Shown: positions 602 through 38,184 of the stretch, piece after piece | Layout of the letters: every line of letters starts with the position of its first letter | Numbering within the stretch: position 1 is the stretch's first letter | Source: a virus | Virus record (IMG/VR): IMGVR_UViG_3300020213_000029 | Location: 5,652-69,651 of that record | Length of the DNA: 64,000 nt | Strand: one strand, 5' to 3' | Notes under the pieces: model-generated | What the model was told of the DNA's origin: nothing | The model's database searches: none | What the model saw: the letters and a program-made list of their open reading frames with translations, nothing else | Position numbers and translations under genes: made by a program

Positions 602-766
602 ATGAAAGAAATGGCTGCTATCACATTGACGGAGCAGGAAGTGGATTGGCTCAACAGGTATGTCGCCGAGGGTGACGACTTCGAGTTTGATAGTAATCTC
701 GATGAATCCATTCTGCACAAACTGTGGGGCTCCTTGCCTGCCACGGCTGGTAAGAATGTCCAGTGA
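602..766 (+). CDS. Small hypothetical protein
   Basis: AAGGAG RBS before ATG 602; acidic 54-aa ORF. Confidence 0.55.
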   Translation: MKEMAAITLTEQEVDWLNRYVAEGDDFEFDSNLDESILHKLWGSLPATAGKNVQ

Positions 767-944
767 GGCGTTTTCTGCGCCTACGGTACGGACATTTTTT
801 GCGGGCGGCTGGATTTTTATCTTCGACGGATGGGCGTCGTTACAGTTCATGCCCGGAAAAAAATTGCTATACGCACCCTATTCAGCCTCGTGGGTAGACA
901 ACAAACAGTCGTTGTCGCTCCCCGAAAACTGGATCGCAGTGTGA
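756..944 (+). CDS. Microprotein with C-terminal LPENWIAV motif
   Basis: ATG 756 is in frame with track ORF 660-944 and overlaps the previous gene; shares terminal motif with other small ORFs. Confidence 0.65.
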   Translation: MSSEAFSAPTVRTFFAGGWIFIFDGWASLQFMPGKKLLYAPYSASWVDNKQSLSLPENWIAV

Positions 945-980
945 CTTCAGTCCGGTCCCAATAGAGTCGTAGTCAATAGT

Positions 981-1202
981 ATGGTCGTACGTATCGATTT
1001 TAAGGACGGAACCTTCTCTTGGCATGTCGGCGACAGTGAGGTCCATTTGAACAGCGGAAACTCTGCCGAACTGGGCGTTCCCATCAAGGGGACTGCTCCC
1101 ACGGAGACCGAAGCGATGAGGGCGGGCGTCGAAGCGATCCGGGAGATAAAGAAACGTCGTGAAATGGCTTCACATTACCCTAAAACCATCGAAGTTATGT
1201 AA
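981..1202 (+). CDS. Hypothetical protein
   Basis: 73-aa ORF in a run of co-oriented small genes. Confidence 0.5.
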   Translation: MVVRIDFKDGTFSWHVGDSEVHLNSGNSAELGVPIKGTAPTETEAMRAGVEAIREIKKRREMASHYPKTIEVM

Positions 1203-1479
1203 GATCATGTATCCCGGAAACTCAGACATGGAAATTGTCGAGTTCGTTGCCTTACTCCCCCCTATTCTCCCCGGCGCTATCATTGCGCTGCGAGTCGACC
1301 CTATTGTTGACCGGCAGCACATGATGCTAAAACATCTTCACGAGGCGATCGAAGTCCAGGTCGGCCACAACGAATTTCTGATCATCATCCTCCCCGACAG
1401 TGGGAAGATCGATGTGGTTGCAGCGACCGAGGCGCTAGCCTGGTTGCAGAACTATTTGGGAGTATGTGACAATGAGTGA
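1159..1479 (+). CDS. Hypothetical protein (true start probably 1207 or 1228)
   Basis: ORF tiles with neighbours. Confidence 0.45.
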   Translation: MKWLHITLKPSKLCKIMYPGNSDMEIVEFVALLPPILPGAIIALRVDPIVDRQHMMLKHLHEAIEVQVGHNEFLIIILPDSGKIDVVAATEALAWLQNYLGVCDNE

Positions 1480-1684
1480 AGCTGCCTTGCGGGAATTCGC
1501 CGAGATGGTCGTAGCACTGTGTGAACCGATGGGGCCTCCCGCCTACTCACCGATCACTGATCCGATTCGGACCATTTTACTGAACGCTGCCAAGAAGGCT
1601 CTCAGGGAGCCCTCCGAGACCCGTGATCTTTTTGGTATCCGTCCATGGTTTCAACTCGTCAATTTTGATCCGCACTACGATTGA
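1466..1684 (+). CDS. Hypothetical protein
   Basis: Overlaps upstream stop, suggesting translational coupling. Confidence 0.45.
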   Translation: MTMSEAALREFAEMVVALCEPMGPPAYSPITDPIRTILLNAAKKALREPSETRDLFGIRPWFQLVNFDPHYD

Positions 1685-1913
1685 GCCGCTTCTTTTTTTC
1701 GCGCTTCGTTTCAGGGCGGTAAAACGGCGCCATCCAACCGGTTTCCGGTAGCCGCTCGGCAACCCATGTAGTCCCGCACTGTTCGCATTCGACGACCGTA
1801 CCTTCCGGCAGGCTTCCCAGTTTCGAACCGAACGGAACGAATCGGTAAACTGTGTCACCGATCGGACGCCCAAGTCCGAGACATACGTGCTCTTGTCGAG
1901 CAATAATTTTCAT
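1659..1913 (-). CDS. Hypothetical protein with CxxC
   Basis: AGGAG RBS on the minus strand upstream of ATG; CEQCG motif. Confidence 0.55.
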   Translation of the reverse strand: MKIIARQEHVCLGLGRPIGDTVYRFVPFGSKLGSLPEGTVVECEQCGTTWVAERLPETGWMAPFYRPETKREKKKRLNRSADQN

Positions 1914-1929
1914 GAATTAGCTCCTACTG

Positions 1930-1958
1930 TTGACGGATTGATTTTTGCGTGCTATCCT
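1930..1958 (+). promoter_or_regulatory. Sigma70/SigA-type promoter
   Basis: TTGACG-17nt-TATCCT with TG extension. Confidence 0.65.
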
Positions 1959-1997
1959 TACATCACTGAGTGACCAAGCAACCTTTGGAGGTATCAA

Positions 1998-2828
1998 GTG
2001 TCAACAGTAACGGGAAGCTTCCCCAATGTAATCTACGTCGACCCTCGGGACGTGATCGTAGACCTGAGTTACCAGAGAATCCTCGATCAGCCACGAGTTG
2101 ATCGGATCGTGAAAGGTTTCGACGAGAGGCTGTTCGGGGTTCCGTTCGTGTCTCGCAGGCGGGGCATACTGTACTGCGTGGATGGACAGCACCGTCTCAC
2201 CGCCGCAGTGCTCAAAGGGATGAACCGGGTTCCGGTGCAGCTCGTCGAGAACCTGGAACTGCCCGAGGAAGCCTGGATGTGGGGAGCGGTCAACAACTAC
2301 CGCAAACTTCACACTTCGGTGGAAGCCTTCAACGGCGCCCTTGTCGCAGGCAGCCAAGTGCACGCACAGATCAACGAGATCATCACCGATCTCGGGCTGA
2401 AAATCTCCAAGACTCGGAGCGATGAGTCGATCGGTGCAACTGGAACGCTTCTGCAAATCGAGAAGCGGGGCGGGGTTCCCTTGGTGCAAGACACCCTGAC
2501 GTTGATCAAGACCGTGTGGTATCCACATAAGCTGGCGTGGGATAAACGGTTCATGGCGGGCGTCGGCATGTTCCTTCATTTCTATGAGCGGATCATCGTA
2601 TGGGACGACATGGTCGATTCGTTCAAGAAGGGTCTAGCGGACAACTACACGCCGCACCTCATCCTCACCAAAGGGGCGGAACTGGACTCCCAATCGGGGA
2701 TCGCATATCAGCGCAACGAAGCGGTGGCTTTCATCCTGAAACAGGAATACAACAAGTACGGACACCACAAGTACGGGTCGGTCAAGAAACGGGATCGGAC
2801 CATAGGGAAATACAAAGGTTTCGCCTAG
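1998..2828 (+). CDS. ParB/Srx-like N-terminal domain protein (DUF6551-like)
   Basis: VDLSYQR...VDGQHRL motifs; GGAGGT RBS. Confidence 0.75.
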   Translation: MSTVTGSFPNVIYVDPRDVIVDLSYQRILDQPRVDRIVKGFDERLFGVPFVSRRRGILYCVDGQHRLTAAVLKGMNRVPVQLVENLELPEEAWMWGAVNNYRKLHTSVEAFNGALVAGSQVHAQINEIITDLGLKISKTRSDESIGATGTLLQIEKRGGVPLVQDTLTLIKTVWYPHKLAWDKRFMAGVGMFLHFYERIIVWDDMVDSFKKGLADNYTPHLILTKGAELDSQSGIAYQRNEAVAFILKQEYNKYGHHKYGSVKKRDRTIGKYKGFA

Positions 2829-2844
2829 CAACAAATAACTCAAC

Positions 2845-2883
2845 AAAAAAGGAGACCCGGGTCGCCCCGGGTCTCCTTTTTTT
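2845..2883. terminator. Bidirectional intrinsic terminator
   Basis: A6-GGAGACCCGGG-tcgc-CCCGGGTCTCC-T7, perfect 11-bp stem. Confidence 0.85.
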
Positions 2884-2905
2884 ATGCCCCTTTCCCGATA
2901 ATTAA

Positions 2906-3142
2906 ATGGTGCTACACTATTTGGTCGTGGGTCATTGGAGTGGATTTAATATTGGGCAACGGAGCCCGGATGTGATCTTCTGTCAGTCGATGCTAGGACA
3001 GCCTGAAACGGGCTTCTGGTCCGCCAATGATGAAGATGCCTTCCTCGACTGCATCGAGGAGAAGGCCAGTAATGAGTGGGAGTGCCTAGCCAGTTTCTTC
3101 CCCAGGAATTGGTTTCACCTTTTCGATTCTGCGATCTATTAG
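2906..3142 (+). CDS. Hypothetical protein, possible divergent PxNW-family member
   Basis: Ends ...FFPRNWFHLFDSAIY. Confidence 0.5.
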   Translation: MVLHYLVVGHWSGFNIGQRSPDVIFCQSMLGQPETGFWSANDEDAFLDCIEEKASNEWECLASFFPRNWFHLFDSAIY

Positions 3143-3161
3143 GGATTTTACAGTGCGTGAT

Positions 3162-3320
3162 ATGCCCCTGTTTGATGAAGAGCCGAGTTGCTTAGAGTGC
3201 GGGGAAATAAAATTTCGAGAATCATCAATACCAGGAGTTTGTTTTGCTTGCTTTAAGTCTGTCCGAGACGAAGATACCGAGGGAGTGGAGTTCTCATATC
3301 ATCGTCAAGGTATGCCCTAG
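3162..3320 (+). CDS. Small Zn-ribbon-like protein (52 aa, not in track)
   Basis: MPLFDEEPSCLECGE...VCFACF with two CxxC. Confidence 0.45.
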   Translation: MPLFDEEPSCLECGEIKFRESSIPGVCFACFKSVRDEDTEGVEFSYHRQGMP

Positions 3321-3448
3321 TCACGGCATCTACGCCCCCCTGCTGGAAGACGATCGGTGTGACTCGTGGTGCAACTCGCTGGCGCTGTTTGCAACGTTCG
3401 CTGAGTTCTATGACGCCATCAAACCCAAGAATGTAGTGCGTTTCTGAA

Positions 3449-4174
3449 ATGAACATCGATGCGTTATGGAAGCGCTACAAACACGACCCCAAAGAGGCTG
3501 ATCGTAATGAGATCGCCATCTACTATATGCCTGCCGTCCGAAAAGTGGCGCAGACGATGGCGTACGGATTGCCGTCCAGTGTCGACGTGGAAGATTTGAA
3601 CTCGTACGGTCTGTTCGGTCTGTTCGATGCCATCGAAAAATTCGATCCCGATAAAGGGTTCAAGTTCGAGACCTATGCGGTGCAGCGAATCCGGGGCGCT
3701 ATCGTTGATTCGCTACGATCCCTCGACTGGGTGCCCCGGTCGGTGAGATCCCGAGGGCGAACCTTGGAGACGGCACTTTCGGAAGATCCGAGACGTTCCA
3801 CTGCCGGTGCCGCCGATCGGCTAGGCTGGACCGCTAAAGAGGCAAATGATACACTAATGAACGTCCACTCCGGAAACGTAGTTTCGCTTGAAGCGAGACT
3901 AGGCGACGAAGAGACTCAGCATGGGACCAGCCTGATGTATTTCATTACTGCACTCGATACGGCAGAGGACTTCGTCAGCATCGAATATGTCGTCAACGAG
4001 GTTGCTGCAGCGATCGAAGGGCTCCCGATGCGGGAAGGCCTGATCGTGGCCCTCTACTACTATGAAGGTTTGACGCTGGCCGAGATCGGTGCTTTACTGC
4101 ACGTTACTGAGAGTCGGGTCTGCCAGATCCATACCAAGATCTGTTATACAGTTCGGCGGGAGTTGTTGAATTGA
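3449..4174 (+). CDS. fliA: FliA/WhiG-family RNA polymerase sigma factor (sigma-28 type)
   Basis: EDLNSYGLFGLFDAIEKFDP..KFETYA..RIRGAI.D.LR.LDWVPRSVR; region 4 LYYYEGLTLAEIG..L.VTESRVCQIH. Confidence 0.93.
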   Translation: MNIDALWKRYKHDPKEADRNEIAIYYMPAVRKVAQTMAYGLPSSVDVEDLNSYGLFGLFDAIEKFDPDKGFKFETYAVQRIRGAIVDSLRSLDWVPRSVRSRGRTLETALSEDPRRSTAGAADRLGWTAKEANDTLMNVHSGNVVSLEARLGDEETQHGTSLMYFITALDTAEDFVSIEYVVNEVAAAIEGLPMREGLIVALYYYEGLTLAEIGALLHVTESRVCQIHTKICYTVRRELLN

Positions 4175-4353
4175 GCCGAAAACGAAGGAGGATGAACGCT
4201 AAGCAGCTCATTTCCATCGACGCCGATGTCAAGACGCTTCGGAAAATGGTCAACGAGATGGAGGAGCTAGCCGAGAGTGTGCAAGGCTTCTCCGTCTTGA
4301 CCCAGATGAAAAACGTGGCCATCGTGGATATTTCAGAGTACGCCCGACAATGA
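4171..4353 (+). CDS. Hypothetical protein
   Basis: Overlaps sigma gene stop and next start. Confidence 0.45.
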   Translation: MSRKRRRMNAKQLISIDADVKTLRKMVNEMEELAESVQGFSVLTQMKNVAIVDISEYARQ

Positions 4354-4589
4354 AAACAAAGTACCAGTCTGCTGGCCTCGGACACATGCGGTTTCCCTGC
4401 AGTACCTGCGGGCGCATCGTCTGGAAAAATCAGGACGAAGCGAAGCGGGAAGCGAAGAGGATCCGTGCCCGCTACGGAATCCGCACTGTTGCCGAAAAAT
4501 GTCGGGGCGCTCGTGCCGCCAACGGGTGGGATTGGGATTGGGGGTGCGGTTGGCATGTGGGAGTGAAGGGCTCAAAAAATAATCCTTGA
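4350..4589 (+). CDS. Small Cys/His protein typical of actinophages
   Basis: CxxC...C..C.GWHVG pattern. Confidence 0.55.
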   Translation: MKTKYQSAGLGHMRFPCSTCGRIVWKNQDEAKREAKRIRARYGIRTVAEKCRGARAANGWDWDWGCGWHVGVKGSKNNP

Positions 4590-4614
4590 CAGCCGATAGA
4601 TCTGGTAGTACAAT
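4586..4614 (+). promoter_or_regulatory. Near-consensus SigA promoter for PTH2 and the tRNA-like array
   Basis: TTGACA-17nt-TACAAT. Confidence 0.8.
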
Positions 4615-4676
4615 AGACAGCATCGACAACCGAAAGGCAGAAAACATTGTAGGGCAAACCTGAACCTCATGAGAAA

Positions 4677-5000
4677 ATGTACATCCTAGCTAGGGCCGAT
4701 ATCGGTCCCGGCCTTCAAGCGGCGCAATCAGCTCATGCCGCTTTTCAAATTTCAGCTGAGTATCCCCAAGTGGTCGAAGACTGGCTGAAAGATTCAAGCA
4801 CAATTGTGCTGCTGTCTGTTGACAGCGAAGATCAGTTGTTGGAATGGGCTGACGTATGCCACAAGGAACGGGTCACCTATCTCCTCGTGAGAGAACCCGA
4901 TCTGGGGGACGAGCACACGGCGCTGATCGTGCCTCCGTCGCATGTCGGCCCAAGATTTTCTGAGCTACCATTGCAAGGCGAGGTGGTTGTAGTGGTATAA
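4677..5000 (+). CDS. Peptidyl-tRNA hydrolase, PTH2 family
   Basis: MYILARADIGPGLQAAQSAHAA, IVLLSV.SE, REPDL..E.TAL motifs. Confidence 0.85.
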   Translation: MYILARADIGPGLQAAQSAHAAFQISAEYPQVVEDWLKDSSTIVLLSVDSEDQLLEWADVCHKERVTYLLVREPDLGDEHTALIVPPSHVGPRFSELPLQGEVVVVV

Positions 5001-5012
5001 TCAGAGAAACAT

Positions 5013-5075
5013 TCCGGGGAGAAGCGGCCAATCGGTTGCAGGCTTGTAGAAGTTCGAATCTTCACCCCGGAGCCA
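5013..5075 (+). ncRNA. tRNA-like element 1 (no canonical anticodon arm)
   Basis: Acceptor TCCGGGG/CCCCGGA, G discriminator, CCA; T-arm GAAG-TTCGAAT-CTTC; only 28 nt between the arms. Confidence 0.7.
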
Positions 5076-5076
5076 G

Positions 5077-5153
5077 CCTCGGCAGGGAATTCGCTATCAA
5101 GGAACGTGTAGCGGAAAGCCCTCTTTGATGTGCAGGTCATCAGCCGAGGACCA
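5077..5153 (+). ncRNA. tRNA-like element 2
   Basis: Acceptor CCTCGGC/GCCGAGG-A-CCA; 5-bp/7-nt T-like arm TGATG-TGCAGGT-CATCA; one long hairpin replaces the D and anticodon arms. Confidence 0.65.
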
Positions 5154-5154
5154 T

Positions 5155-5206
5155 GCCAGGGTCCCCGTACGGCGGGACTAGGAGTTCATTACTCGCCCTG
5201 GCTCCA
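5155..5206 (+). ncRNA. tRNA-like element 3 (52-nt minihelix-like)
   Basis: Acceptor GCCAGGG/CCCTGGC-T-CCA; short TCCC/GGGA hairpin; GAG-TTCATTA-CTC T-like arm. Confidence 0.65.
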
Positions 5207-5207
5207 T

Positions 5208-5280
5208 GCCTGAATAGTGTAGTAGCTGCACGCTCGACTCTAACTCGGGAAGGACCGGAGCGTAACCGGATCAGGCTCAA
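5208..5280 (+). tRNA. Atypical tRNA with CUA (amber) anticodon
   Basis: GCCTGA/TCAGGC acceptor, D stem GTGT/GCAC, anticodon stem CTCGA/TCGGG with loop CT-CTA-AC, T arm CCGG-AGCGTAA-CCGG; ends TCAA. Confidence 0.65.
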
Positions 5281-5283
5281 CAT

Positions 5284-5362
5284 GGCGGGATAGTGTATGG
5301 GCACGCCCTACTCGGCGATCGAGCTTAAGGGAAGAGGTTCCGTTCGATTCGGTCTCCCGCTA
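5284..5362 (+). ncRNA. tRNA-like element 5 with extended anticodon arm
   Basis: GGCGGGA/TCCCGCT acceptor, D stem GTGT/GCAC, CCCT..CTCG-GCGAT-CGAG..AGGG arm, TTCGATT T-loop. Confidence 0.6.
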
Positions 5363-5389
5363 CTCCGATAAGTACCCACGGAGATTGTC

Positions 5390-5974
5390 GTGGAGATGGT
5401 GCTATACGTGGCTGAATGCGAGTTTGATGACCTGGCGGCATTCATGGCCGATCAATCACACGATCCAAGTTTTGCCGACATAGCCGACGATGAGCAAATC
5501 CGTTCGAGGCTGCTTGATGACCTAGCGGCCACGCGAGAAATCGCAGGCATGACGCAGCTCGAAGTCGCGAGTCAGATGGGGACCACCCAGTCCGCAGTGT
5601 CCGAACTCGAAGCTGGTGAGAGCGATCCACGGCTTTCCACCCTGCAGCGCTACTCGCGAGCCGTTGGTGCGAAGTTGCACGTCGCCCCCTCAATGACTAA
5701 TCGAACCAAGGTCCGACAAGCGGTTGGCCGCCTGGTGGCGGGCGCTTGTTTTGCGGATGAAGAAGTTTGTTCTGGCGCGCCCGTCAACAGTGAGGGGCAG
5801 CGTGTCATCATCCCTGTCTCGGAAGATGAGCTGCTCATCGATGTGTGCGGTCTCGTTCGGCAGGCAGGCGGCGCAGCGCTGGTCGTAGCGGTGAACCTCG
5901 AACTGTCAACTCCTCACGATGTTTACCTCATCCACAGGGTGAGCAGTGCGCCAACAAGGCCCCTCAATGACTAA
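5390..5974 (+). CDS. Xre/HigA-like HTH protein with C-terminal extension
   Basis: R..AGMTQ.EVA.QMGTTQSAVSELEAGESDPRLSTLQRY..A.G. Confidence 0.8.
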   Translation: MEMVLYVAECEFDDLAAFMADQSHDPSFADIADDEQIRSRLLDDLAATREIAGMTQLEVASQMGTTQSAVSELEAGESDPRLSTLQRYSRAVGAKLHVAPSMTNRTKVRQAVGRLVAGACFADEEVCSGAPVNSEGQRVIIPVSEDELLIDVCGLVRQAGGAALVVAVNLELSTPHDVYLIHRVSSAPTRPLND

Positions 5975-5988
5975 TCGAACCAAGGTCC
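5686..5988 (+). repeat. 29-bp exact direct repeat (5686-5714 and 5960-5988)
   Basis: CCCCTCAATGACTAATCGAACCAAGGTCC occurs twice, 274 bp apart. Confidence 0.9.
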
Positions 5989-6152
5989 AGGTCGCCACGG
6001 ATGACGACGTTAGATCCGCGGTGCGGGATAGCCTCTCGGGGTTGGGGTTGACGTTCGATGAGTTACAGGCGCAGGCGGAAGCGGATCGTTTCGACAGCGA
6101 CCTCGCGAGGCGGACGTGGTTGGCAATCGCAGACCTTGCCGCTTACGCCTGA
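5967..6152 (+). CDS. Small hypothetical protein (LGLTFDEL..QA...F type)
   Basis: ATG lies inside the second repeat copy and overlaps the HTH gene end. Confidence 0.55.
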   Translation: MTNRTKVQVATDDDVRSAVRDSLSGLGLTFDELQAQAEADRFDSDLARRTWLAIADLAAYA

Positions 6153-6919
6153 CCCACCGACTTTATAATCAACTCTTCAGCTGTGAAGTTCTTCCCGATC
6201 GCTGCAGAATAGGTTGCCTTCAGCGGGCGAATCGAGTCTCGTTTGTATAGTTCGTGTATTTCTGGAGCGTTGTCATAGGACAAAAGCCAATCGTGCCCCT
6301 CATGTAGCAATGCTGCCAAATTCTCGTGATCGCTTTGTGTCAGATAGTGTTGATACATCGTCTTCCCCCGCATATAATACGGTGGGTCGACATAAAAAAA
6401 GGCGTCTTCCATCCTGGCTTTATCGATGACGTCTCGGAAATCGAGCTGCGTTACCGTGAGCCGGTCACGGAAGAGTTCCGTTGTGTCCTGTATTTGCCGG
6501 ACAAGATATTCTTGCCGCCACTCCGCATCGATCTTCCATTTTCCTGTTTGATTCCATCCGCCGACCGGCGACGTGTGAGACTTTCCGCTATAAGCAGTCC
6601 GGTTCAGGTAGATCGCAGCGAAAGCGTCGTCGACCGTAGACAGTTCTCGGAACAAATCGGTAGTAGCGGTCGTGGAGAGGATACGATCACATAAGGCATC
6701 AACGTTGCCGGTAGCAACCAGTTGCCAGAACGCAGCGATCTTCGAATCCAGATCGTTCAACCATATCAAACGATCTGGATCTCGTTGAGCTACGGCGATA
6801 CTGACACTGGCGCCACCGCAAAACGGTTCACAAAAAAGTGGACCCGGGGGGACGTCGTCAAGGAACAGATTGACGAGCTTTGACTTCCCCCCCGGATACC
6901 TGAAAATGTTTAGCTTCAA
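6143..6919 (-). CDS. dam: DNA adenine methyltransferase, Dam (D12) family
   Basis: FRYPGGKS, EPFCGGASV, ND.D, YVDPPY, LSYDN motifs. Confidence 0.92.
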   Translation of the reverse strand: MKLNIFRYPGGKSKLVNLFLDDVPPGPLFCEPFCGGASVSIAVAQRDPDRLIWLNDLDSKIAAFWQLVATGNVDALCDRILSTTATTDLFRELSTVDDAFAAIYLNRTAYSGKSHTSPVGGWNQTGKWKIDAEWRQEYLVRQIQDTTELFRDRLTVTQLDFRDVIDKARMEDAFFYVDPPYYMRGKTMYQHYLTQSDHENLAALLHEGHDWLLSYDNAPEIHELYKRDSIRPLKATYSAAIGKNFTAEELIIKSVGQA

Positions 6920-7236
6920 GGGGTAAGCCAGAAGGGATCGGCTTTTCCTTCAGCGACCAGTTCCAGAGTCTTCAGGTTTGTTTTTTCGGGCCATTGCTCT
7001 CTGAATGGGACACAATGCCCAAAAAAATCCGAGTACCATGCCCGATGTCCACCCCTACTGGCATGGGGACCGTCATGACCGGCTCGGAGGCAGCAGTGCC
7101 ACGACCGAGGTTTCGCCACGGACGCCCTCAAACCGCCGAATGTCAAAGCGATACTCTGACATGCGTTTGGGTGTCCGGGGTCGATAAGGTTATCGATCGG
7201 GATCTTCTCTTTGCGTCCCGATGACTGGTTCTTCAT
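6916..7236 (-). CDS. Hypothetical protein
   Basis: C.L..GH.GPH motif; 4-bp overlap with dam. Confidence 0.55.
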   Translation of the reverse strand: MKNQSSGRKEKIPIDNLIDPGHPNACQSIALTFGGLRASVAKPRSWHCCLRAGHDGPHASRGGHRAWYSDFFGHCVPFREQWPEKTNLKTLELVAEGKADPFWLTP

Positions 7237-7254
7237 GAGCGTTTCCTTTCGTCG

Positions 7255-7578
7255 TTAATCAAGTGGGCACAGCCCCATAGTGGTTACTGTCAGATAACAG
7301 CAGGGACACGAAGGTCGTGTAGGAATTGTCATTATAGCACTCCTGGTGCCCTTCTGTAATACCAAATGAGCACCAGGATAGGCCATATAAAACCCATCAT
7401 TATATGCAAACCGCTCTACGTCATCTGCTTCTCTTAAACAATGCTGTACGTAGGTCAAGTCTGCGCCTAATTCGCTCGCTACATCGTAGCTGCTGATCCA
7501 TTGCGGAGTGTCATACTCTAATGCTGTCCTAATTCTGGTGCGGATGAACGAGACTGTGTCCATGAACGAACTCAACAC
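7255..7578 (-). CDS. Hypothetical protein with C-terminal Cys cluster
   Basis: CPCC...C; co-oriented with neighbours. Confidence 0.5.
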   Translation of the reverse strand: MLSSFMDTVSFIRTRIRTALEYDTPQWISSYDVASELGADLTYVQHCLREADDVERFAYNDGFYMAYPGAHLVLQKGTRSAIMTIPTRPSCPCCYLTVTTMGLCPLD

Positions 7579-7584
7579 TAAAAT

Positions 7585-8355
7585 TTAGAGGGGCGCTACT
7601 GAGAAGTGTTGCGGCTCCGATTTGCGGGACCGAGAATATTTGGTGCAGTCACTGCACGACCACTTTTGGAAGTGGCTGACGTTGGTGTGGTGAAATCCTC
7701 GCTTCATCAGATGTTCGCTGCCGCAGTGGGGACAGACATGCTGTCCATCGAATTCGGGGATCACCAGTCTTGGTGTGCCAGTAACGTAGGGCATGAGCGC
7801 TTCGTATACTTGTTCCAGGAGAACGACGTCCCGTCGATTATATTTTAGCATCTTGTTCAGCGCAGTCTGGTCTCCGTGATAACAAGATTTCCACAATTGG
7901 AAGTCGGTTTTGAGCTTCTTGCCGAGGCCGAGGATTTCGCCCAGATAATCCAACTTGTTGTACGCTAGCCGAAAGTTTCTCTTGGCCAACTTGCATGTAT
8001 CGATCGACCTCTTAGGACCGATCGGCGTCAGACCGAGTACCAGAAGCCGGTTGTTGAGCATAGGTATATCGAATCTGTCGCCATTGTGAGCGACAACGAC
8101 ATCGGCTTCCCGGATCATCTCAGCCAATTCAAATACGATTCTGCTGTCGTTTTGGTCTATCGCCTCTTGCGGTGTGACGCAGCCGGAAGTGATCGTTTTT
8201 TCGCCGAGCCATTTAGCGGACCACGTAAGCAAGAAACTGTCGTGGATGAGACGATCATGCGTAACATACTGGTCGGTGGGATGCCATATGTGTGCCAACA
8301 GAGGCCCACTCTCGATATCGTACAGCAGCACTCTGAGCTTGGTCATTATCGCCAA
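7585..8355 (-). CDS. DEDD/RNase H-like 3'-5' exonuclease with C-terminal Zn ribbon
   Basis: YDIES, AHNGDRFD, IDT, KLDYL, YN..DV; CPHCGS..C.DC. Confidence 0.85.
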   Translation of the reverse strand: MAIMTKLRVLLYDIESGPLLAHIWHPTDQYVTHDRLIHDSFLLTWSAKWLGEKTITSGCVTPQEAIDQNDSRIVFELAEMIREADVVVAHNGDRFDIPMLNNRLLVLGLTPIGPKRSIDTCKLAKRNFRLAYNKLDYLGEILGLGKKLKTDFQLWKSCYHGDQTALNKMLKYNRRDVVLLEQVYEALMPYVTGTPRLVIPEFDGQHVCPHCGSEHLMKRGFHHTNVSHFQKWSCSDCTKYSRSRKSEPQHFSVAPL

Positions 8356-8500
8356 TCAGTCATTATATTATCGTCGCGGGCTCCCGCGTATCAGACTGAT
8401 GTCCTCCATCTTAACACAGGATCTCTGTATAGTCCTTCTGTAGGGAGCCCGTTTATACGGATAAACAGAGGTACCATGTGAGCCCGACCGATCTCTGTCG

Positions 8501-11500
8501 ATGATAGTTAGGTCGCTCAAAGAGGAGCCTTTGCCTGTGTCAGACTACCTTTCTTTCCGGTTGCCCGAGTCTTTTATCGAGACCTACAAGGAGGGCAAGC
8601 CAGATTGGAAGTTTGGGATTGGGGGCGGCAATTCGCTGTCAGAGCTGACCTTTATTGGTAAGTATTCCCGCAAAAAGGGGGATGGGACGAAGGAACAGTG
8701 GTTCGATGTTTGTGAGCGTGTGATCAACGGCATGTACTCCATACTCAAGGATCACTGCACCCACCAGCGCACGCCATGGAATGAGTTCAAAGCACTCAAA
8801 AGTGCGCAGGATGCCTACGAACGAATGTATTCGTTCAAATGGTTGCCCCCTGGCCGGGGTCTGTGGATGATGGGGACGGACCTTGTCCACGGCGAAGGAC
8901 ACTCCAACGGTTTGCAAAATTGCTCCTTCATCAGTACCGCCAAACTGTCCACACACTCAGCGTGGGAAGCAACCGGTCCATTCATCCGAATGATGGAACA
9001 GGCAATGTGGGGCATTGGTTGTCTTGCCGAGGGTTCTATAATTATGACTTCCGATGGTCCTAAACCTATCGAGACTCTCGGTGGGGCTTGTGATGTCATC
9101 GTCGACGGAGTGAAACATCATTCCCCTACGGGGTCATGGTTCACCGGCGAAAAGAACGTTGTAGAGATCCGGACCAATGAAGGCTTTCGCCTTAAGCTGA
9201 CTCCCGACCATCAGGTAAAAACAGTAATCTACCGACGCTCAACAAACAATGTAGTCAGATGTGAATCAATCTGGAAAGAAGCACAAGCACTACTCCCGGG
9301 AGATCTAGTCGCACTGAGTCACGCCGGAGAGTATATCTGGGGAGGCGCAGGCACCTTTGATGAGGGTTATCTGGTCGGAGCCGTACTGGGGGACGGGTGG
9401 CTGGATGATGGGGGACGAGCGTTTGCCGCAGCTTACCGCAAAGATCACAACATGGAAGGGATAAAGCGACAGTGCGAAATCAGCGGTCAGTACGTTCCCC
9501 GACGCAACTGTGCTGGGGGTTGGCGTACTAAAAACAAAGACTGCGACATATACTCGGTAGGATCATGGGTATTTGATTATCTGTCTAAAACTCCTAAAAA
9601 TGTCAAGCCCACTGTCGAAGGGACGGGGGCTGATTTCCATATAGGGTTCCTTCGAGGGCTCTTCGATGCAGACGGATCAGTCATCGACTCCGGCCCCGAG
9701 GGTAGAGTTGTGAAGCTCACTCAAAGCAATCAAAACACATTGGAAGTCGTTCAACGCATGCTGTTAAGATTTGGAATAAGGAGCAACATAACGGTCAAGC
9801 GAGCCGAACAAGTGGAAGCCACAATTCTCGGGAAGGTGACCGTTTCAAATCCAGCCTGGGATCTTCAAATCGGGAAAGACGGAATCTCCAAGTTTGTGGA
9901 GATGATTGGCTTCTCGGAGGGTCCGAAGTCTGAGAGATTACTCGCAATGGGAAAGGATAGGCCATACCGTAGCAAACAGCGTCTTCATGCAGCGGTCACT
10001 GAAGTCCTCGCCTTGGACGAAAAAATGCGAACCTATGACATGTCGGTTCCAGACATCCAGACGTTCGATGCGAACGGCATGCAGGTCCATAATTGTGGCA
10101 GCGACACTCGGGGTGCGGGTCGGCTCATTCTAAACCAACCCATCGACCGCACCGAGATATTTACGGTACCAGACAGCCGAGAAGGGTGGGCCGAATCTGT
10201 CGGCAAACTTCTGGAATCATTTTTCTTTAAGAATCGTCCACGTCTGGAACACAACTATGATCTGATCCGGCCTGCTGGCTCTCCGCTGCAGCGGTTCGGT
10301 GGTTTTGCGTCGGGTCCGCAACCTTTGATCGACTGCCACGAATCGATCCGTGCCCAACTAGAAGATCGGGCGGGCGACCATATCACTAGCCGAGATATCA
10401 CCGACATTATCAACAAGATCGGCAAGGCAGTACAGGCCGGTGGCACTAGGCGTAGCGCTCAGATCATGTTCGGCGACCCCGACGACAAAGACTTCGTGAA
10501 CATCAAAAATTGGGAACTGGAAGAGAACGTCGAGCGAACCGGACCTGATGGTTGGGCGTGGAATTCGAATAATTCGGTCTTCGCGGAGACCGGTATTGAG
10601 TATTCTGATCTTGTTGAAACGATCAAGATTAACGGAGAGCCCGGCCTGTTTTGGTTAGAATTGGCGAGGTCATATGGTAGAATGGTTGACCCTCCAGACG
10701 GGAAAGATTGGCGTACCGTAGGTTCTAATCCTTGCGCTGAGCAGACGCTTGAACACATGGAAGTATGCACATTAGTAGAGATGTTTCCGAACCTTCATAA
10801 CGACTTCGACGATTTCAAACAAACGATTAAAGCGGCCTACCTTTATGGCAAAGCCGTTACACTGTTACCGACAACGTGGCCAGAAACAAACGAGGTCATG
10901 GCCCGCAATCGTCGGATCGGATGCTCGATGTCTGGGCTCGCCCAGTTCGTGGAAGAGCGGGGCTGGATGCAGCTCAAAACGTGGATGGACGACGGTTACA
11001 GTTTTCTGGTTCATCGAGACACAAAATACTCTGAATGGCTGGCGGTACGGGAATCCATCAAGAAGACCAGCATCAAACCGAGCGGCACAGTATCCATTGT
11101 GGCGGGTGTGACGCCGGGAGTGCATTGGCCGGTCAAATCGGGCTACTATATTCGTCGAATCCGCTACACGATATTCGACCCGATCGTAGACGTGCTCAAA
11201 GATGCCGGGTACGATGTCGAGCCGAGCTACGACGACCCAAGCAACACCGTCGTAGTATCCTTCCCCACTCGGGGACCGGTCATGCGGGACGAACGCAATG
11301 TCACCATCTGGGAAAAAGTAGAACTCGCTGTACTGGCGCAGCGATATTGGGCGGACAACCAGGTCAGTGCTACGATCTCATTCATGCCCCACGAAGTTGA
11401 CCAAGTGGCGCACGTGTTGTCCGCCAAAGACGGGCAACTGAAAAGTATTTCGTTCCTGCCGATCACAGACGCAGGGACATCGCATCGGCAAGCGCCCTAT

Positions 11501-11638: not shown

Positions 11639-11720
11639 ACATCTCCTTTAGCTGTTCGTCTTATATTGCAAGTGTTGCACGAAGCCACGAGGTTATCCGG
11701 AGCAAACTCTCATAAAATAT

Positions 11721-11888
11721 TCATACGATGATCCAGTTCGACGGGAGAGCCTCATGTCTCGGGTCGCCGACGAACTCCGGCGACCTGTCTTCGGAAAAAC
11801 ATGAGACTGTATTCGGAATCCTGGGATCGTTTATCGCATACCGCAATCTCCAGATTCCGTCAACCGAACGCTCTGTAACAACTCTCAT
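11721..11888 (-). CDS. Microprotein (55 aa) ending LPSNWIIV, not in ORF track
   Basis: MRVVTERSVDGIWRLRYAINDPRIPNTVSCFSEDRSPEFVGDPRHEALPSNWIIV*; ATGA overlap with upstream gene. Confidence 0.7.
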   Translation of the reverse strand: MRVVTERSVDGIWRLRYAINDPRIPNTVSCFSEDRSPEFVGDPRHEALPSNWIIV

Positions 11889-12649: not shown

Positions 12650-12727
12650 CTCGATCCTCTCTGTCCTCCCGTACTGTAGCACATTTATCGCTGCAGATGC
12701 AAGAAATTCCGGACTCTTATAAAATTA

Positions 12728-13634: not shown

Positions 13635-13651
13635 GTGGTCGATGAGTTCGT

Positions 13652-13816
13652 ATGGAACACGACGAACCCTTCGCTATCTTTCTGGCCTCCGCTTACGGGT
13701 TCGGTGCCAATTTCGGCCCGATCGGCATCTGGGTGACCGAACCCTGCGGCGAATTCACTCGACTCACCCATCTGCCCACCCCAAAAAATTGGTGCTACGT
13801 CACAATTGCTGGTTGA
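13652..13816 (+). CDS. Microprotein (54 aa) with PKNWCYV near the C-terminus, not in track
   Basis: MEHDEPFAIFLASAYGFGANFGPIGIWVTEPCGEFTRLTHLPTPKNWCYVTIAG*. Confidence 0.55.
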   Translation: MEHDEPFAIFLASAYGFGANFGPIGIWVTEPCGEFTRLTHLPTPKNWCYVTIAG

Positions 13817-14963: not shown

Positions 14964-15134
14964 ATGATTACTTATCAGACAATTATACGAGATGTCTCCG
15001 TTATCTCTGAATCTGACTTTGACCTTGTATATTCTCGGCATCGTAAGTTTGGTCAACTGCGAGCCAAAGTCTTATGGGGCGGTGAGACCGGTGATCATTG
15101 GATTAGCCTGCCCAACAGCTGGGTCGTGGTGTGA
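14964..15134 (+). CDS. Microprotein (56 aa) ending LPNSWVVV, not in track
   Basis: MITYQTIIRDVSVISESDFDLVYSRHRKFGQLRAKVLWGGETGDHWISLPNSWVVV*. Confidence 0.65.
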   Translation: MITYQTIIRDVSVISESDFDLVYSRHRKFGQLRAKVLWGGETGDHWISLPNSWVVV

Positions 15135-15295
15135 TGCTCCTCTTGGGATGGCGGCTTGGTATGCCTGTCATGTCCGAATATCTGGCTGGTACCACCGTTG
15201 AGTTGGTATGGTACCATCTTGGCCCAGAAGTGCGATCAAATGGGCGTAGATCCTATGAATCCGTTTATCTTCCCAACAACTGGATAGCTGTTTAA
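15134..15295 (+). CDS. Microprotein (53 aa) ending LPNNWIAV, not in track
   Basis: MLLLGWRLGMPVMSEYLAGTTVELVWYHLGPEVRSNGRRSYESVYLPNNWIAV*; TGATG coupling to previous ORF. Confidence 0.65.
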   Translation: MLLLGWRLGMPVMSEYLAGTTVELVWYHLGPEVRSNGRRSYESVYLPNNWIAV

Positions 15296-36257: not shown

Positions 36258-36273
36258 AAGGGGTGACATAACT

Positions 36274-37221
36274 ATGAAAGAAATGATCGATCTCCTCGGA
36301 AGGAATGCCCAAGAGCGAGCAGTCATCAAAGACCTTAAAGCTAAGGTCCAAGCTGAAGCTGAGGCGAACTGGGAAGATCCCAAATGGCGTCGTGACATGG
36401 CTGCGGCTATGACAGAGACCATCTTTTGGGGTTTTGAGCACGAAAACCTTCTGCCTTTGATGTCGAATGTGGAGAACGTGGGTTGGAATGATCGAGTTGC
36501 GATCAAAGAGACTCGTGGACTCCGGGCACACTGGGTTGCTCGTGGCGGTTATATCGAGAGTTCTGAGCTGCACTCAGAGATCTTTGAGCTGCCCCGGGAC
36601 ACCGTCGGTTTTGCTCTATTCGAATTCGAAGACAAGATCCTCGCCAATTTCGGTGAGACGCAGTCGAATATCATCCGCCTTGGTATGCAACGTCTCGACG
36701 CTGCGATCTATCAGCGGTTCTTCGCCACACTGCAAGCCGCTGTACCTTTCGGCAACTCATCGTATATTTCCGGTGCGGGCCTCAGCCTTTCTGCTCTTGT
36801 AGCAGGATTGCGGTCCGTTCGTGACGCCTCCATGGATGGCAACATCACGATCGTCGGTCGGGCCACGATGACAGACCAAATTGTTGACGCAATTATCGGA
36901 GCCAATCAAGGCACCGGTTTCTTGCCGCAAACAAATGAGGATCTGCTTCGTCGGGGCGTGCTCGGAGTTTACCGTGGCGCCAATATCATCACCTTGAAGA
37001 ACTACAAGGACGATGTCGATGTCTCATACTTCCCAGCCAACGAGTTGTGGATTATCGGACAAGACGCATCCAAGTTCGCCTACTTCGGTGACCTTAAGTC
37101 CAAGGAAATGCTTGAAGGCGACAACTGGTACTGGCATTACAGGACGAGGCGAGACTTTGGTGGCGTAGTGCATAGGCCTGACCGGATCCGTAGAATCGTG
37201 GATACCTCGATTGTTCCATAG
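36274..37221 (+). CDS. Major capsid protein
   Basis: 315 aa; HK97-like G.LG.YRGA.I P-domain signature; followed by a terminator. Confidence 0.75.
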   Translation: MKEMIDLLGRNAQERAVIKDLKAKVQAEAEANWEDPKWRRDMAAAMTETIFWGFEHENLLPLMSNVENVGWNDRVAIKETRGLRAHWVARGGYIESSELHSEIFELPRDTVGFALFEFEDKILANFGETQSNIIRLGMQRLDAAIYQRFFATLQAAVPFGNSSYISGAGLSLSALVAGLRSVRDASMDGNITIVGRATMTDQIVDAIIGANQGTGFLPQTNEDLLRRGVLGVYRGANIITLKNYKDDVDVSYFPANELWIIGQDASKFAYFGDLKSKEMLEGDNWYWHYRTRRDFGGVVHRPDRIRRIVDTSIVP

Positions 37222-37285
37222 CGCCTGTACTAAATAACTCAGGACTAGGTACCGATGCACCTAGTATGGAAAATAGTTTAAACAG

Positions 37286-37315
37286 AAAAGGGTCAGCCTT
37301 CGGGTTGGCCTTTTT
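37286..37315 (+). terminator. Intrinsic terminator
   Basis: GGTCAGCC-TTCG-GGTTGGCC-TTTTT. Confidence 0.8.
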
Positions 37316-37392
37316 CATATGCTATATAGTTGTTTCTATGTTTAAAGACAAGGATCGATTATAATCGTGATGATGATCTGCCTGAAAACGCA

Positions 37393-37429
37393 GAAGAAGG
37401 CCAGGCTCGGGGGTGTCCTGGCCTTCTTC
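37393..37429. repeat. 13-bp perfect inverted repeat upstream of TGATATAAT promoter (37443-37451)
   Basis: GAAGAAGGCCAGG-11nt-CCTGGCCTTCTTC. Confidence 0.7.
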
Positions 37430-37474
37430 CTGTGTAAACGCATGATATAATGTCCGGGACGAAAGGATTTTTTA

Positions 37475-37987
37475 ATGGCAGTCGAGCAATGGAAGAATCA
37501 GACACAGAGTACCGCCTTCGTGTTGAAGTTCGACCGGTATCAGAATCTTATCTCAGAGCTGGTTTCCCCCGGTAAAACCGTGACCGTTACAAAAGAGGAA
37601 CGGGAAATCAATCAGGATCGAGCGGCGTTGGACAATTTGGACGTATTCAAGAACGGCATCCTTTTGCCGGTGAAACTCGTGGACCCCGAGGATGAGCGGG
37701 AATTCGCCGAGAACCCGAACCTGATGAGCGAAGACGACTTGCGAAACCTGCTTAAGCTGAGCAAGCCCGCCTTTGTCAAACGTATCAATGAGATCAGTAA
37801 CATTTACCCGTTGCTGCGGCTTGACGAGCTGGCCAAAGAGGACGATACCAAGATCACGGCCGGTGTCTCGCAGGCGCTGGCTGATCGGATCGAAGAGATG
37901 ACCCCGAAATCTCCCCAGATCAAATCGTTCGCCGACGACGGACCTGTCTCCGAGGAGTTGCAGAGGCGCCGAGACGTGCGAGGCTGA
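37475..37987 (+). CDS. Hypothetical virion-region protein
   Basis: 170-aa ORF with RBS. Confidence 0.65.
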   Translation: MAVEQWKNQTQSTAFVLKFDRYQNLISELVSPGKTVTVTKEEREINQDRAALDNLDVFKNGILLPVKLVDPEDEREFAENPNLMSEDDLRNLLKLSKPAFVKRINEISNIYPLLRLDELAKEDDTKITAGVSQALADRIEEMTPKSPQIKSFADDGPVSEELQRRRDVRG

Positions 37988-37992
37988 CCATA

Positions 37993-38184
37993 ATGCCCGT
38001 GCTGCGCCCCCCAATGTCAATAAAAAACACGAATGGGCTCCGTATTATTACCGAATACGTGGTGCCTCACGAGTGGGAGAAACGGTTCGTTCTTGTGCAA
38101 GCGACCGAAGAATCCACGTCTTGTGTGATCTCTTACCCCGGCCCGAGGTACGAACTTTGTCCTCATAACTGGATCATTGTTTAA
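37993..38184 (+). CDS. Microprotein (63 aa) ending CPHNWIIV
   Basis: Shared terminal motif. Confidence 0.6.
   Translation: MPVLRPPMSIKNTNGLRIITEYVVPHEWEKRFVLVQATEESTSCVISYPGPRYELCPHNWIIV

What the first reader, a model, noticed from the sequence alone, without database searches (positions are those of the whole stretch)
756..38184. Dispersed family of unrelated microproteins sharing a C-terminal (L)P-x-N-W-I-x-V tag
Seen: six 53-63 aa ORFs with no obvious N-terminal similarity end in nearly the same motif. They are 756-944 SLPENWIAV*, 11721-11888(-) ALPSNWIIV*, 14964-15134 SLPNSWVVV*, 15134-15295 YLPNNWIAV*, 37993-38184 LCPHNWIIV* and 13652-13816 PTPKNWCYVTIAG*. A weaker candidate is 2906-3142 FPRNWFHL. 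Four fall below the ORF-track cutoff. The codons differ synonymously (CCC/CCG/CCT/CCA, AAC/AAT, GTG/GTA/GTT, TGA/TAA), so conservation appears to be at the peptide level rather than a DNA repeat. They occur on both strands, in early and late regions, and several are coupled to neighbours (ATGA, TGATG). Inference: a shared C-terminal docking or sorting signal on diverse small effectors, such as a capsid cargo-loading tag, an adaptor-binding motif, or a protease/PDZ-type ligand. Alternatively it is the conserved end of a very divergent small fold. I know of no described family with this motif.
Basis: partly seen in the sequence, partly recalled or inferred. Interest (0 to 1): 0.88.

Follow-up and report, generated by a model that had tools for sequence, protein, structure and literature searches.

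The report
Orphan phage microprotein family, fixed tail
An uncultured phage from microbial mats carries at least a dozen tiny, fast-diverging genes whose proteins all end in the same eight amino acids; the family is real and matches nothing known, but what it does is untested.

Summary
All seven ORFs exist as described. The strict ending P-x-[N/S]-W-[I/V/C]-x-V-stop occurs 5 times in the window against 0.01 in shuffles. It occurs 12 times in the 69.6-kb contig: seven more copies lie just upstream of the window, five of them chained by overlapping stop and start codons. There are also three looser copies and one decayed relic.

Variation falls at third codon positions, so the peptide is conserved, not a DNA repeat. 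The carriers are uniformly 49-74 aa. They sit mostly in coupled mini-arrays and show a recent 120-nt duplication or conversion. Three pairs keep weak N-terminal similarity, but there is no family-wide N-terminal signal.

I read them as one birth-and-death paralogue family, not unrelated proteins. No relative appeared in Pfam, PHROGs, 1.84 billion protein representatives, or about 160 related phage loci. Structure models are poor.

The nearest sequence analogue is the C-terminus of some GT11 fucosyltransferases, at motif level only. My best reading (0.45) is that the motif is an invariant C-terminal beta-hairpin keystone of a hypervariable mini-fold. A trans docking tag (0.3) remains open. This scan has noted comparable microgene arrays in other phages.

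The parts
756..944 (+). M6, 62 aa, ends LPENWIAV-TGA. Single copy; the next gene starts 37 nt downstream.
   Evidence: PSSM 25.7 bits
11721..11888 (-). M12, 55 aa, ends LPSNWIIV-TGA. It lies convergent to the ribonucleotide reductase gene and has no coupled downstream gene.
   Evidence: N-terminal similarity to M9; AF2 pLDDT 58.6
14964..15134 (+). M7, 56 aa, ends LPNSWVVV-TGA. Its stop overlaps the start of M8 (TGATG).
   Evidence: called as a gene in the public protein collection (P0123)
15134..15295 (+). M8, 53 aa, ends LPNNWIAV-TAA (54 aa from the GTG at 15131).
   Evidence: P0126
37993..38184 (+). M9, 63 aa, ends CPHNWIIV-TAA. It sits in the late structural module; the next gene's ATG follows 2 nt after the stop. 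There is no gene at this position in the relative L004.
   Evidence: P0124; held letter for letter in the ESM Atlas
13652..13816 (+). L1, loose copy, 54 aa. It ends TPKNWCYV plus a 4-residue extension, TIAG.
   Evidence: PSSM 11.4 bits
2906..3142 (+). L3, weakest candidate, 78 aa, ...FFPRNWFHLFDSAIY. Membership is doubtful.
   Evidence: below 10 bits in the PSSM scan

Best explanation
This is one lineage-specific multigene family that gains and loses copies. It has 12 intact copies, 3 loose copies and 1 relic in a 69.6-kb fragment that is estimated to be 36% of the phage genome.

Each protein is 49-74 aa. It has a beta-rich N-terminal part that varies freely, then a polar stretch of about 7 residues, then an invariant C-terminal unit: hydrophobic-x-hydrophobic-P-x-[N/S]-W-[I/V]-x-V-COOH.

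I read that unit as a terminal beta-hairpin. One strand leads into a Pro-x-Asn/Ser turn, followed by a last strand anchored by the Trp. Every copy needs this keystone to fold or stay stable, and the rest of the surface is free to change.

The genes multiply by tandem duplication and by recombination or conversion at the motif-coding DNA. They are mostly expressed as translationally coupled mini-operons in accessory and early regions. They most likely act as fast-evolving proteins that bind host or competitor molecules.

Shown: the genes and the motif are real, conservation is at the peptide level, some copies are paralogous, copies turn over, and the family is an orphan. Inferred: the hairpin, its role within its own protein, and the host-directed function.
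For: Real and at the peptide level:
- 12 strict copies, all ending at the stop.
- Entropy at codon positions 1 / 2 / 3 is 0.20 / 0.14 / 1.10 bits.
- Five successive ORFs in changing frames are chained by ATGA or TAATG junctions.
- 5 of the 12 were called as genes by public pipelines.

One family rather than a tag on unrelated proteins:
- The size range is narrow, 49-74 aa.
- The copies are arranged in arrays.
- A 120-nt, 98% identical repeat starts at the Pro codon of the motif and runs across the gene junction into the next gene's first 32 codons.
- A second repeat family of 37 nt covers the ends of M1, M2 and M5.
- With the motif removed, M2-M10, M9-M12 and M5-M6 rank 1-2 against 294 decoy ORFs and have z-scores of 4.3-5.3.
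- A copy without a start codon has decayed at L001 2196-2291(-).

Hairpin or keystone reading:
- Pro and [N/S] are invariant in 12 of 12 copies, as turn-forming residues would be.
- Positions -8, -3, -2 and -1 are hydrophobic in all 12 copies, position -10 is often hydrophobic, and positions -12 to -18 are 58-83% polar.
- The loose copies keep P-x-[N/S]-W-hydrophobic-hydrophobic but carry 2-7 extra residues, so the free carboxylate is not strictly required.
- In GT11 enzymes a like ending, with W at position -4 and a hydrophobic end, lies inside the curated domain model: the match reaches model position 295 of 298.
- Both AF2 models give beta strands in the N-terminal part.

Accessory role:
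- The family is absent from GX15bay.
- It is absent from 80 IMG/VR and 80 metagenome loci around capsid-gene relatives.
- Of 4 whole related records, 3 gave no match and 1 gave a single weak internal match.
- M9 is an insertion relative to L004.
Against: - A leave-one-out HMM built on the motif-less N-terminal parts shows no family-wide homology. Ranks were 9 to 279 of 295.
- Member-to-member scores are no higher overall than member-to-decoy scores: median 18 against 18, p = 0.56. A common fold is therefore not shown.
- Both AF2 models are of low confidence (mean pLDDT 61.3 and 58.6) and leave the motif unpacked as coil. That fits a free tail as well as it fits a keystone.
- The codon-usage signal is weak. 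Members average about 0.04 bits per codon, against 0.20 +/- 0.10 for 60-codon windows of long genes and -0.02 +/- 0.15 for decoys. The members' own frame ranks first in only 4 of 12.
- No expression data and no relatives exist, so selection could not be measured. The four population samples show no variant inside the copies within window 1-16000.
- The pattern of an invariant 8-mer beside hypervariable sequence is also the classic signature of a short linear docking motif.
Confidence: 0.45

Rival explanations
1. Docking or sorting tag read in trans. The octapeptide with its free C-terminus is a short linear motif recognised by one common partner. That partner could be a phage or host hub, a protease or adaptor, or the capsid interior. 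The variable N-terminal parts would be different cargoes or heads.
For: Only the last 8 residues are conserved across the whole family. All 12 strict copies stop exactly after the Val. A polar stretch precedes the tail. The AF2 models do not pack the tail (low confidence). W-[I/V]-x-V-COOH has the hydrophobic-x-hydrophobic-COOH form of class II PDZ ligands (recalled knowledge, not tested). Three copies and a relic lie upstream of a trypsin-like protease gene on the same strand (L001 869-1852(-), Trypsin_2, E 6.7e-4, below the Pfam cut-off).
Against: No large protein in the contig carries the tag, and all carriers have one size class. The contig encodes no PDZ domain (PF13180 and PF17820: no match). 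Invariant Pro at -7 and [N/S] at -5 lie outside what a carboxylate-binding pocket usually reads (recalled). The loose copies extend beyond the Val. No partner was identified.
Confidence: 0.3
2. The tail is borrowed from, or mimics, the C-terminus of a GT11 fucosyltransferase. The microproteins would descend from 3' ends of a glycosyltransferase gene, or act on the site where that tail normally packs. The phage carries a GT11 gene and a large glycan island.
For: In four IMG/VR pattern scans, at least 8 of the 13 long ORFs (over 110 aa) ending in the strict motif are GT11-like. All 5 that were tested are PF01531. hhalign pairs the family's last 9 columns with the GT11 end at 77% probability, pairwise E 2e-5. 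The phage's own GT11 is at window 20431-21333.
Against: The alignment covers 9 columns only. With the motif removed, members score no better against GT11 C-termini than decoys do. Only 2 of 120 close GT11 homologues fit the strict motif; the general GT11 end is L-Y-[C/L/P]-[E/D]-x-W-x-hydrophobic-hydrophobic. The GT11 hits were found by searching for the motif itself, so they are selected. The Pfam GT11 model finds only the true GT11 gene in the contig.
Confidence: 0.05
3. Precursor peptides with a C-terminal recognition or modification site (RiPP-like), for example modification of the invariant Trp.
For: There are many paralogous small ORFs with one constant short segment and variable remainder, placed in tandem. 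The Trp is invariant.
Against: No modifying enzyme was recognised among the 39 neighbouring and structural proteins scanned with Pfam. The constant part is C-terminal and the variable part is long, the reverse of most leader-core layouts (recalled). The contig is only about 36% of the genome, so an enzyme could lie elsewhere.
Confidence: 0.05
4. A nucleotide-level signal. The conserved stretch would be a ribosome-binding or coupling element for the next gene, or a recombination site, and the peptide would be incidental.
For: Eight of the 12 copies are followed within 5 nt by a start codon. The last Val is GTA in 7 of 12, which builds GTATGA or GTATAATG junctions. The 120-nt repeat starts exactly at the motif.
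Against: Variation is concentrated at third codon positions: 1.10 bits against 0.14-0.20. Four copies with no coupled downstream gene (M5, M6, M10, M12) keep the motif fully. The motif is read in one frame only and always in phase with the stop.
Confidence: 0.03

Closest known systems
Lineage-specific expansions and tandem arrays of small ORFan genes in phages. Examples: about 35 zinc-ribbon copies in Bacillus phage G (Iyer et al. 2021, PMC7824862; passages read). Tandem arrays of more than 30 genes in phages G and 121Q (Hua et al. 2017, PMC5646251; passages read). Hyperplastic regions of T4-type phages (Arbiol et al. 2010, PMC2839356; abstract and outline read). This scan has also noted several microgene arrays with fixed termini in other uncultured phages.
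   Same: Many tiny paralogous genes in one phage, chained by overlapping stops and starts. They diverge quickly, are absent from relatives, have no database homologues and have no known function. Copy turnover by duplication and recombination is visible.
   Different: The copies here are spread over several mini-arrays and single sites, on both strands and in the late module. They sit in a 69.6-kb fragment, not in one long array. The conserved element is an 8-residue C-terminal motif not reported in those cases. No promoter-stem-loop cassettes like those of T4-type phages were identified (searches gave only consensus-level matches).
C-terminus of GT11 alpha-1,2-fucosyltransferases (Pfam PF01531)
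   Same: The ending has Trp at position -4, a small polar residue at -5 and hydrophobic last residues. A subset ends exactly in [F/I/C/Y]-P-[E/K]-N-W-[I/V]-x-V-stop.
   Different: The similarity is limited to 9 columns. There is no similarity upstream. Only 2 of 120 close GT11 homologues fit the strict motif. The microproteins are about 55 aa and do not match the GT11 model.
C-terminal docking and targeting peptides: class II PDZ ligands, encapsulin cargo-loading peptides, ssrA-type degrons, and the N-terminal capsid-targeting sequence of T4 internal proteins (all recalled, none tested by a call)
   Same: A short constant peptide at a protein end, attached to otherwise dissimilar sequence. The hydrophobic-x-hydrophobic-COOH form matches.
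   Different: No receptor domain is encoded nearby. Only one size class of carrier exists. The motif sequence differs from all of these. The T4 signal is N-terminal and cleaved.

Membership tests
Any described protein family (Pfam-A, PHROGs) | A significant match of the whole protein to a curated profile | tested here: not met
   Seven window ORFs were scanned at E up to 10. Pfam gave only two sub-threshold chance hits (E 0.05-0.07, well below the cut-offs) and PHROGs gave none. The L001 copies were not scanned against these libraries. They were covered by the profile search.
Phage lineage-specific microgene family (a kind, not a curated family) | Several paralogous genes under about 100 codons in one phage, with signs of duplication and turnover, absent from related phages | tested here: met
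   12 strict copies, 3 loose copies and 1 relic. A 120-nt 98% repeat. Sub-family pairs. Absent from GX15bay and 160 related loci; in 4 whole related records, only one weak internal match.
Phage lineage-specific microgene family (a kind, not a curated family) | All copies descend from one ancestor, shown by full-length homology | tested here: inconclusive
   Three pairs show N-terminal similarity. The leave-one-out HMM and the member-versus-decoy comparison show no family-wide signal.
GT11 glycosyltransferase (PF01531) | A match to the GT11 domain model beyond the terminal motif | tested here: not met
   hhalign aligns 9 columns only. Motif-less comparison is at decoy level. A six-frame search of the contig with PF01531 finds only the genuine GT11 gene.
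PDZ-ligand or other C-terminal docking tag | A cognate peptide-binding domain or partner that recognises the free C-terminus | tested here: inconclusive
   No PDZ_2 or PDZ_6 match in the contig. The contig is about 36% of the genome and the host is unknown. Binding is not testable here.
PDZ-ligand or other C-terminal docking tag | The motif lies at the extreme C-terminus | tested here: met
   12 of 12 strict copies stop right after the Val. The three loose copies do not.
RiPP precursor family | A co-encoded modifying enzyme and a leader-core layout | tested here: not met
   No such enzyme among the 39 proteins scanned with Pfam. Not all genes were scanned and the genome is incomplete.

The most novel reading that the evidence does not exclude
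The octapeptide is a phage-specific address tag. A single hub protein, of phage or host, reads hydrophobic-P-x-N-W-[I/V]-x-V-COOH. Through it the hub recruits, loads or destroys a diversified set of at least a dozen interchangeable microprotein heads. New heads arise by recombination at the tag-coding DNA, as in the 120-nt repeat that starts at the tag. That would be an undescribed modular effector-delivery or adaptor system in a phage.
Probability: 0.25. Interest if true: 0.8.

Novelty: new member of a known kind. Interest (0 to 1): 0.5.

Why it matters
Small phage genes are mostly missed by gene callers: only 5 of these 12 were in the public protein set. Together they are a large pool of unexplored host-interaction functions.

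This family combines one nearly invariant 8-residue ending with otherwise free sequence, and it shows visible duplication, conversion and decay. That makes it a compact natural test of which residues such a mini-protein cannot change. It also makes it a convenient case for asking whether phages use fixed terminal peptides as structural keystones or as address tags.

If the tail is a tag, it would define a new recruitment system and a handle for finding its receptor. If it is a keystone, it is a minimal scaffold that tolerates extreme surface variation.

Tried and rejected
Searches for relatives that found nothing:
- A word-index search with M4 found no candidate.
- A profile of all 12 copies against 1.84 billion representatives gave 7 hits. 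Five were the phage's own copies. Two were repeat proteins matched by chance: P0125 (repeats that I read by eye as fibronectin-III-like) and P0128 (a satellite-like repeat).
- The ESM Atlas gave only scores of 0.87 or below for M9 and no usable hit for M12.
- The scan's own index by sequence found nothing.
- A literature search for the motif strings gave 8 irrelevant papers.

Related phages:
- GenBank GX15bay (capsid protein 50% identical) has no motif ORF.
- 80 IMG/VR loci (1.15 Mb) and 80 metagenome loci (0.67 Mb) around capsid-gene relatives of 62% identity or less gave one spurious hit each.
- Genome contigs held no relative.
- Four whole related records gave one weak internal match, E 0.0086.
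- Closer relatives exist only as protein ids (P0003-P0006, 68-83% identical capsid protein). Their contigs could not be fetched.

Four DNA-pattern scans of IMG/VR returned 290 single hits, and no stretch held two. Of these, 197 lie in frames shorter than 30 codons, as chance would give.

Structure: both AF2 jobs gave low confidence. Foldseek against the PDB gave no match at E 0.001 or better. No solved GT11 structure was found by sequence.

Complex prediction (M12, two copies, alignment A4) returned no answer, with a score of 0.00 in both runs. I take nothing from it.

Sequencing runs: no RNA holder was listed. Four DNA runs from microbial mats hold the phage, and two of them may be its source. 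Their contigs are near-identical, with 17 variable places in 16 kb and none inside a family member. Selection could therefore not be measured.

A codon-usage test discriminates poorly in this genome. Promoter and terminator scans gave only consensus-level matches.

I rejected my by-eye impression that M6 and others resemble about 45 residues of the GT11 C-terminus, because decoy controls did not support it.

Supplementary files of the papers were not consulted.

Full report
WHAT IS THERE.

The window is bases 5652-69651 of a single 69,651-base linear virus record. CheckV rates the record about 36% complete. It encodes:
- a ribonucleotide reductase, which I take to be class II from the 'triphosphate reductase' labels of its hits, with an inserted segment;
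- a sigma factor, a PTH2 hydrolase, a Dam methylase, an HU-like protein and an exonuclease;
- a glycan island that includes a GT11 gene;
- a capsid protein of family PF27364 with 811 relatives in public data.

Four DNA runs from microbial mats hold the phage. Two of them may be its source.

CHANCE.

The regex P.[NS]W[IVC].V followed at once by a stop occurs 5 times in the window. In 200 shuffles the mean was 0.01 and the maximum 1. The regex was chosen after the fact. That serves as an independent replication.

The members, in contig coordinates (window coordinate = contig coordinate minus 5651):

| Copy | Contig coordinates |
|---|---|
| M1 | 4482-4685+ |
| M2 | 4682-4873+ |
| M3 | 4870-5094+ |
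| M4 | 5094-5261+ |
| M5 | 5261-5410+ |
| M6 | 6407-6595+ |
| M7 | 20615-20785+ |
| M8 | 20785-20946+ |
| M9 | 43644-43835+ |
| M10 | 2386-2577- |
| M11 | 2579-2788- |
| M12 | 17372-17539- |

A position matrix of the last 8 residues separates these 12 copies (24-31 bits) from everything else (14.8 bits or less). It gives 19 hits of 10 bits or more, against 2.5 expected.

The next hits are:
- a 30-codon relic without a start codon, ending TPKNWVVA-stop, just downstream of M10;
- the loose copy L2 (contig 2785-3063-, ...WLPKSWYCVQL);
- the loose copy L1 (window 13652-13816).

L3 (window 2906-3142) is weaker and doubtful.

PEPTIDE, NOT DNA.

At the five conserved codons the entropy is 0.20, 0.14 and 1.10 bits at codon positions 1, 2 and 3 (11 copies, M4 dropped). 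Pro and the last Val each use four codons. Four copies without a coupled downstream gene (M5, M6, M10, M12) keep the motif. A ribosome-binding, coupling or recombination signal therefore cannot be the main constraint.

The junction DNA still matters for evolution. A 120-nt repeat, 98% identical (L001 5070-5189 and 5237-5356), begins at the Pro codon of the motif. It crosses the stop-start overlap and covers the first 32 codons of the next gene. As a result M4 and M5 share their heads but not their middles.

ARE THEY GENES?

For:
- M1 to M5 form a chain of five ORFs in changing frames. Each ends in the motif and overlaps the next start.
- The motif shows the period-3 pattern above.
- Public pipelines independently called 5 of the 12 as genes.

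Against:
- Codon usage is only weakly gene-like. Members average about 0.04 bits per codon, against 0.20 +/- 0.10 for windows of long genes and -0.02 +/- 0.15 for decoy ORFs. The members' own frame is best in only 4 of 12.
- No RNA data were available.

I take them to be real but young or fast-evolving genes.

ONE FAMILY OR A SHARED TAG?

With the last 9 residues removed, most pairs show nothing. A leave-one-out HMM ranks members 9th to 279th among 295 sequences. Member-to-member scores equal member-to-decoy scores, with medians of 18 and 18 and p = 0.56.

Three pairs stand out: M2-M10, M9-M12 and M5/M4-M6. They rank first or second against 294 decoys and have z-scores of 4.3-5.3. The M9-M12 alignment shares R-[I/V]-[I/V]-T-E, W-x-x-R-[F/Y], S-C and G-x-P-R-[Y/H]-E before the motif.

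Other evidence points the same way: the uniform size (49-74 aa), the array layout, the repeat and the relic. Together they favour a paralogous family that diverges very fast outside its tail. I cannot exclude that the tail-coding segment has also been moved onto new heads by recombination.

ARCHITECTURE.

Counting from the C-terminus:
- Positions -1 to -8 are V, [I/V/M/A], [I/V], W, [N/S], x, P, [C/L/F/I].
- Position -10 is often hydrophobic.
- Positions -12 to -18 are 58-83% polar.
- Further upstream, hydrophobic and polar residues alternate.

AF2 with the 12-row alignment gives beta strands in the N-terminal part of M4 and M12 and leaves the tail as coil. Confidence is low, at 61.3 and 58.6. 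Foldseek finds nothing.

The hydrophobic-x-hydrophobic-P-x-[N/S]-W-hydrophobic-x-V pattern reads as strand-turn-strand. This is inference from general turn propensities, not a result.

RELATIVES.

No family member was found anywhere else:
- Pfam and PHROGs;
- the word index;
- 1.84 billion representatives;
- the ESM Atlas;
- GX15bay;
- 160 loci around capsid-gene relatives;
- four whole related records, apart from one weak internal match;
- four IMG/VR pattern scans, in which no contig had two hits.

In the relative L004 the gene after the capsid-adjacent 177-aa protein follows directly. This phage has M9 and a zinc-ribbon gene at that place. M9 therefore looks like an insertion.

THE GT11 LEAD.

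The pattern scans turned up real long proteins that end in the strict motif. At least 8 of these 13 are GT11-like, and the 5 that I tested are all PF01531, with the model matched to position 295 of 298. hhalign aligns the family with these GT11 ends over the last 9 columns only, at 77% probability.

Three controls weaken the link:
- Motif-less comparison is at decoy level.
- Only 2 of 120 close GT11 homologues fit the strict motif, although nearly all end ...W-x-hydrophobic-hydrophobic with the Trp at position -4.
- The hits were selected by the motif itself.

I keep this as a motif-level analogue. It shows that such an ending can be the last structural element of a folded domain. It does not show homology.

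MECHANISM.

My best reading (0.45) is that the terminal hairpin is the keystone, within its own protein, of a tiny beta fold whose surface varies freely. The family would then be a gain-and-loss set of accessory proteins that probably bind host molecules.

The main rival (0.3) is a docking tag read in trans. It is favoured by the pattern of an invariant short motif beside variable sequence, and by the exact C-terminal position. It is disfavoured by the single size class of carriers, the invariant turn residues, the extended loose copies, and the lack of any receptor domain in the contig.

Minor rivals are GT11 mimicry, RiPP-like precursors and a nucleotide-level signal.

CONTEXT IN THE LITERATURE AND IN THIS SCAN.

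Lineage-specific expansions and tandem arrays of small phage genes are known:
- about 35 zinc ribbons in phage G (PMC7824862, passages read);
- arrays of more than 30 genes in phages G and 121Q (PMC5646251, passages read);
- ORFan-rich hyperplastic regions of T4-type phages (PMC2839356, abstract and outline read).

This scan has already noted several arrays of microproteins with fixed ends in other uncultured phages. None has this motif.

This finding is therefore a new, well-supported member of a known kind, and its function remains unknown.

Noticed in passing
L001 5070-5189 and 5237-5356 (contig bases upstream of the window): A 120-nt direct repeat, 98% identical, with a period of 167 nt. 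It starts at the Pro codon of the motif and crosses the stop-start junction, giving M4 and M5 the same first 32 residues but different middles. This points to recombination or conversion at the motif DNA.
   Followed up: partly
L001 2196-2291 (-): A 30-codon frame ending ...AVYTPKNWVVA-stop with no usable start codon. It lies between M10 and the next gene and looks like a decayed family copy.
   Followed up: partly
window 14940-14963 (+): Directly before the ATG of M7, in the same frame, the DNA reads S-L-P-S-W-I-E-I. This is motif-like but one residue short and has no stop. It could be a relic of another copy or chance.
   Followed up: no
L001 869-1852 (-): A 327-aa protein with a weak Trypsin_2 match (E 6.7e-4, below the cut-off) and what I read by eye as His/Asp/Ser motifs. 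It lies on the same strand, downstream of the L2-M11-M10 array and the relic.
   Followed up: partly
window 8501-11638 (+): The 1045-aa ribonucleotide reductase matches phage reductases in two pieces that cover about 71% of it. It holds an inserted segment that I read as an intein, from the flanking residues and the size. Best phage hits are Mycobacterium phage Gaia and an Actinomycetia phage, at about 47-48% identity.
   Followed up: no
window 37993-38512 (+) compared with L004 11088-12196: M9 and the following gene (111 aa from the listed TTG, 108 aa from the ATG; its cysteine pattern looks zinc-ribbon-like to me) sit between two structural genes that are adjacent in the relative L004. This is an insertion in the late module.
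   Followed up: partly
L083, L084, L085, L090 and about 20 further IMG/VR loci: A 41-codon frame ending ...SHLLPQNWIVV-stop recurs almost unchanged in many IMG/VR contigs. It has no obvious start and may be an off-frame of a conserved gene.
   Followed up: no
L156 5292-6185 (+), L108 6497-7354 (-), L399 538-1479 (+), L257 1748-2644 (+), L279 5324-6178 (-): Viral GT11 fucosyltransferases (PF01531) that end exactly in [F/I/C/Y]-P-E-N-W-[I/V]-x-V-stop. Among 120 close homologues the usual end is L-Y-[C/L/P]-[E/D]-x-W-x-hydrophobic-hydrophobic, with Trp always at position -4.
   Followed up: yes
L005 14087-14389 (+) (137.5-kb related record): A 100-aa ORF next to a 154-aa ORF that I took by eye for MazG-like (not tested) holds an internal V-I-V-C-P-P-R-N-W-I-A-P. 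It was the only hit of the family profile in four related records (E 0.0086 per record).
   Followed up: partly
whole contig G000: The record is linear, has no terminal repeat, and is rated about 36% complete. Capsid-gene relatives sit on contigs of 137-163 kb. The phage may therefore be much larger, and the family count is a lower bound.
   Followed up: no
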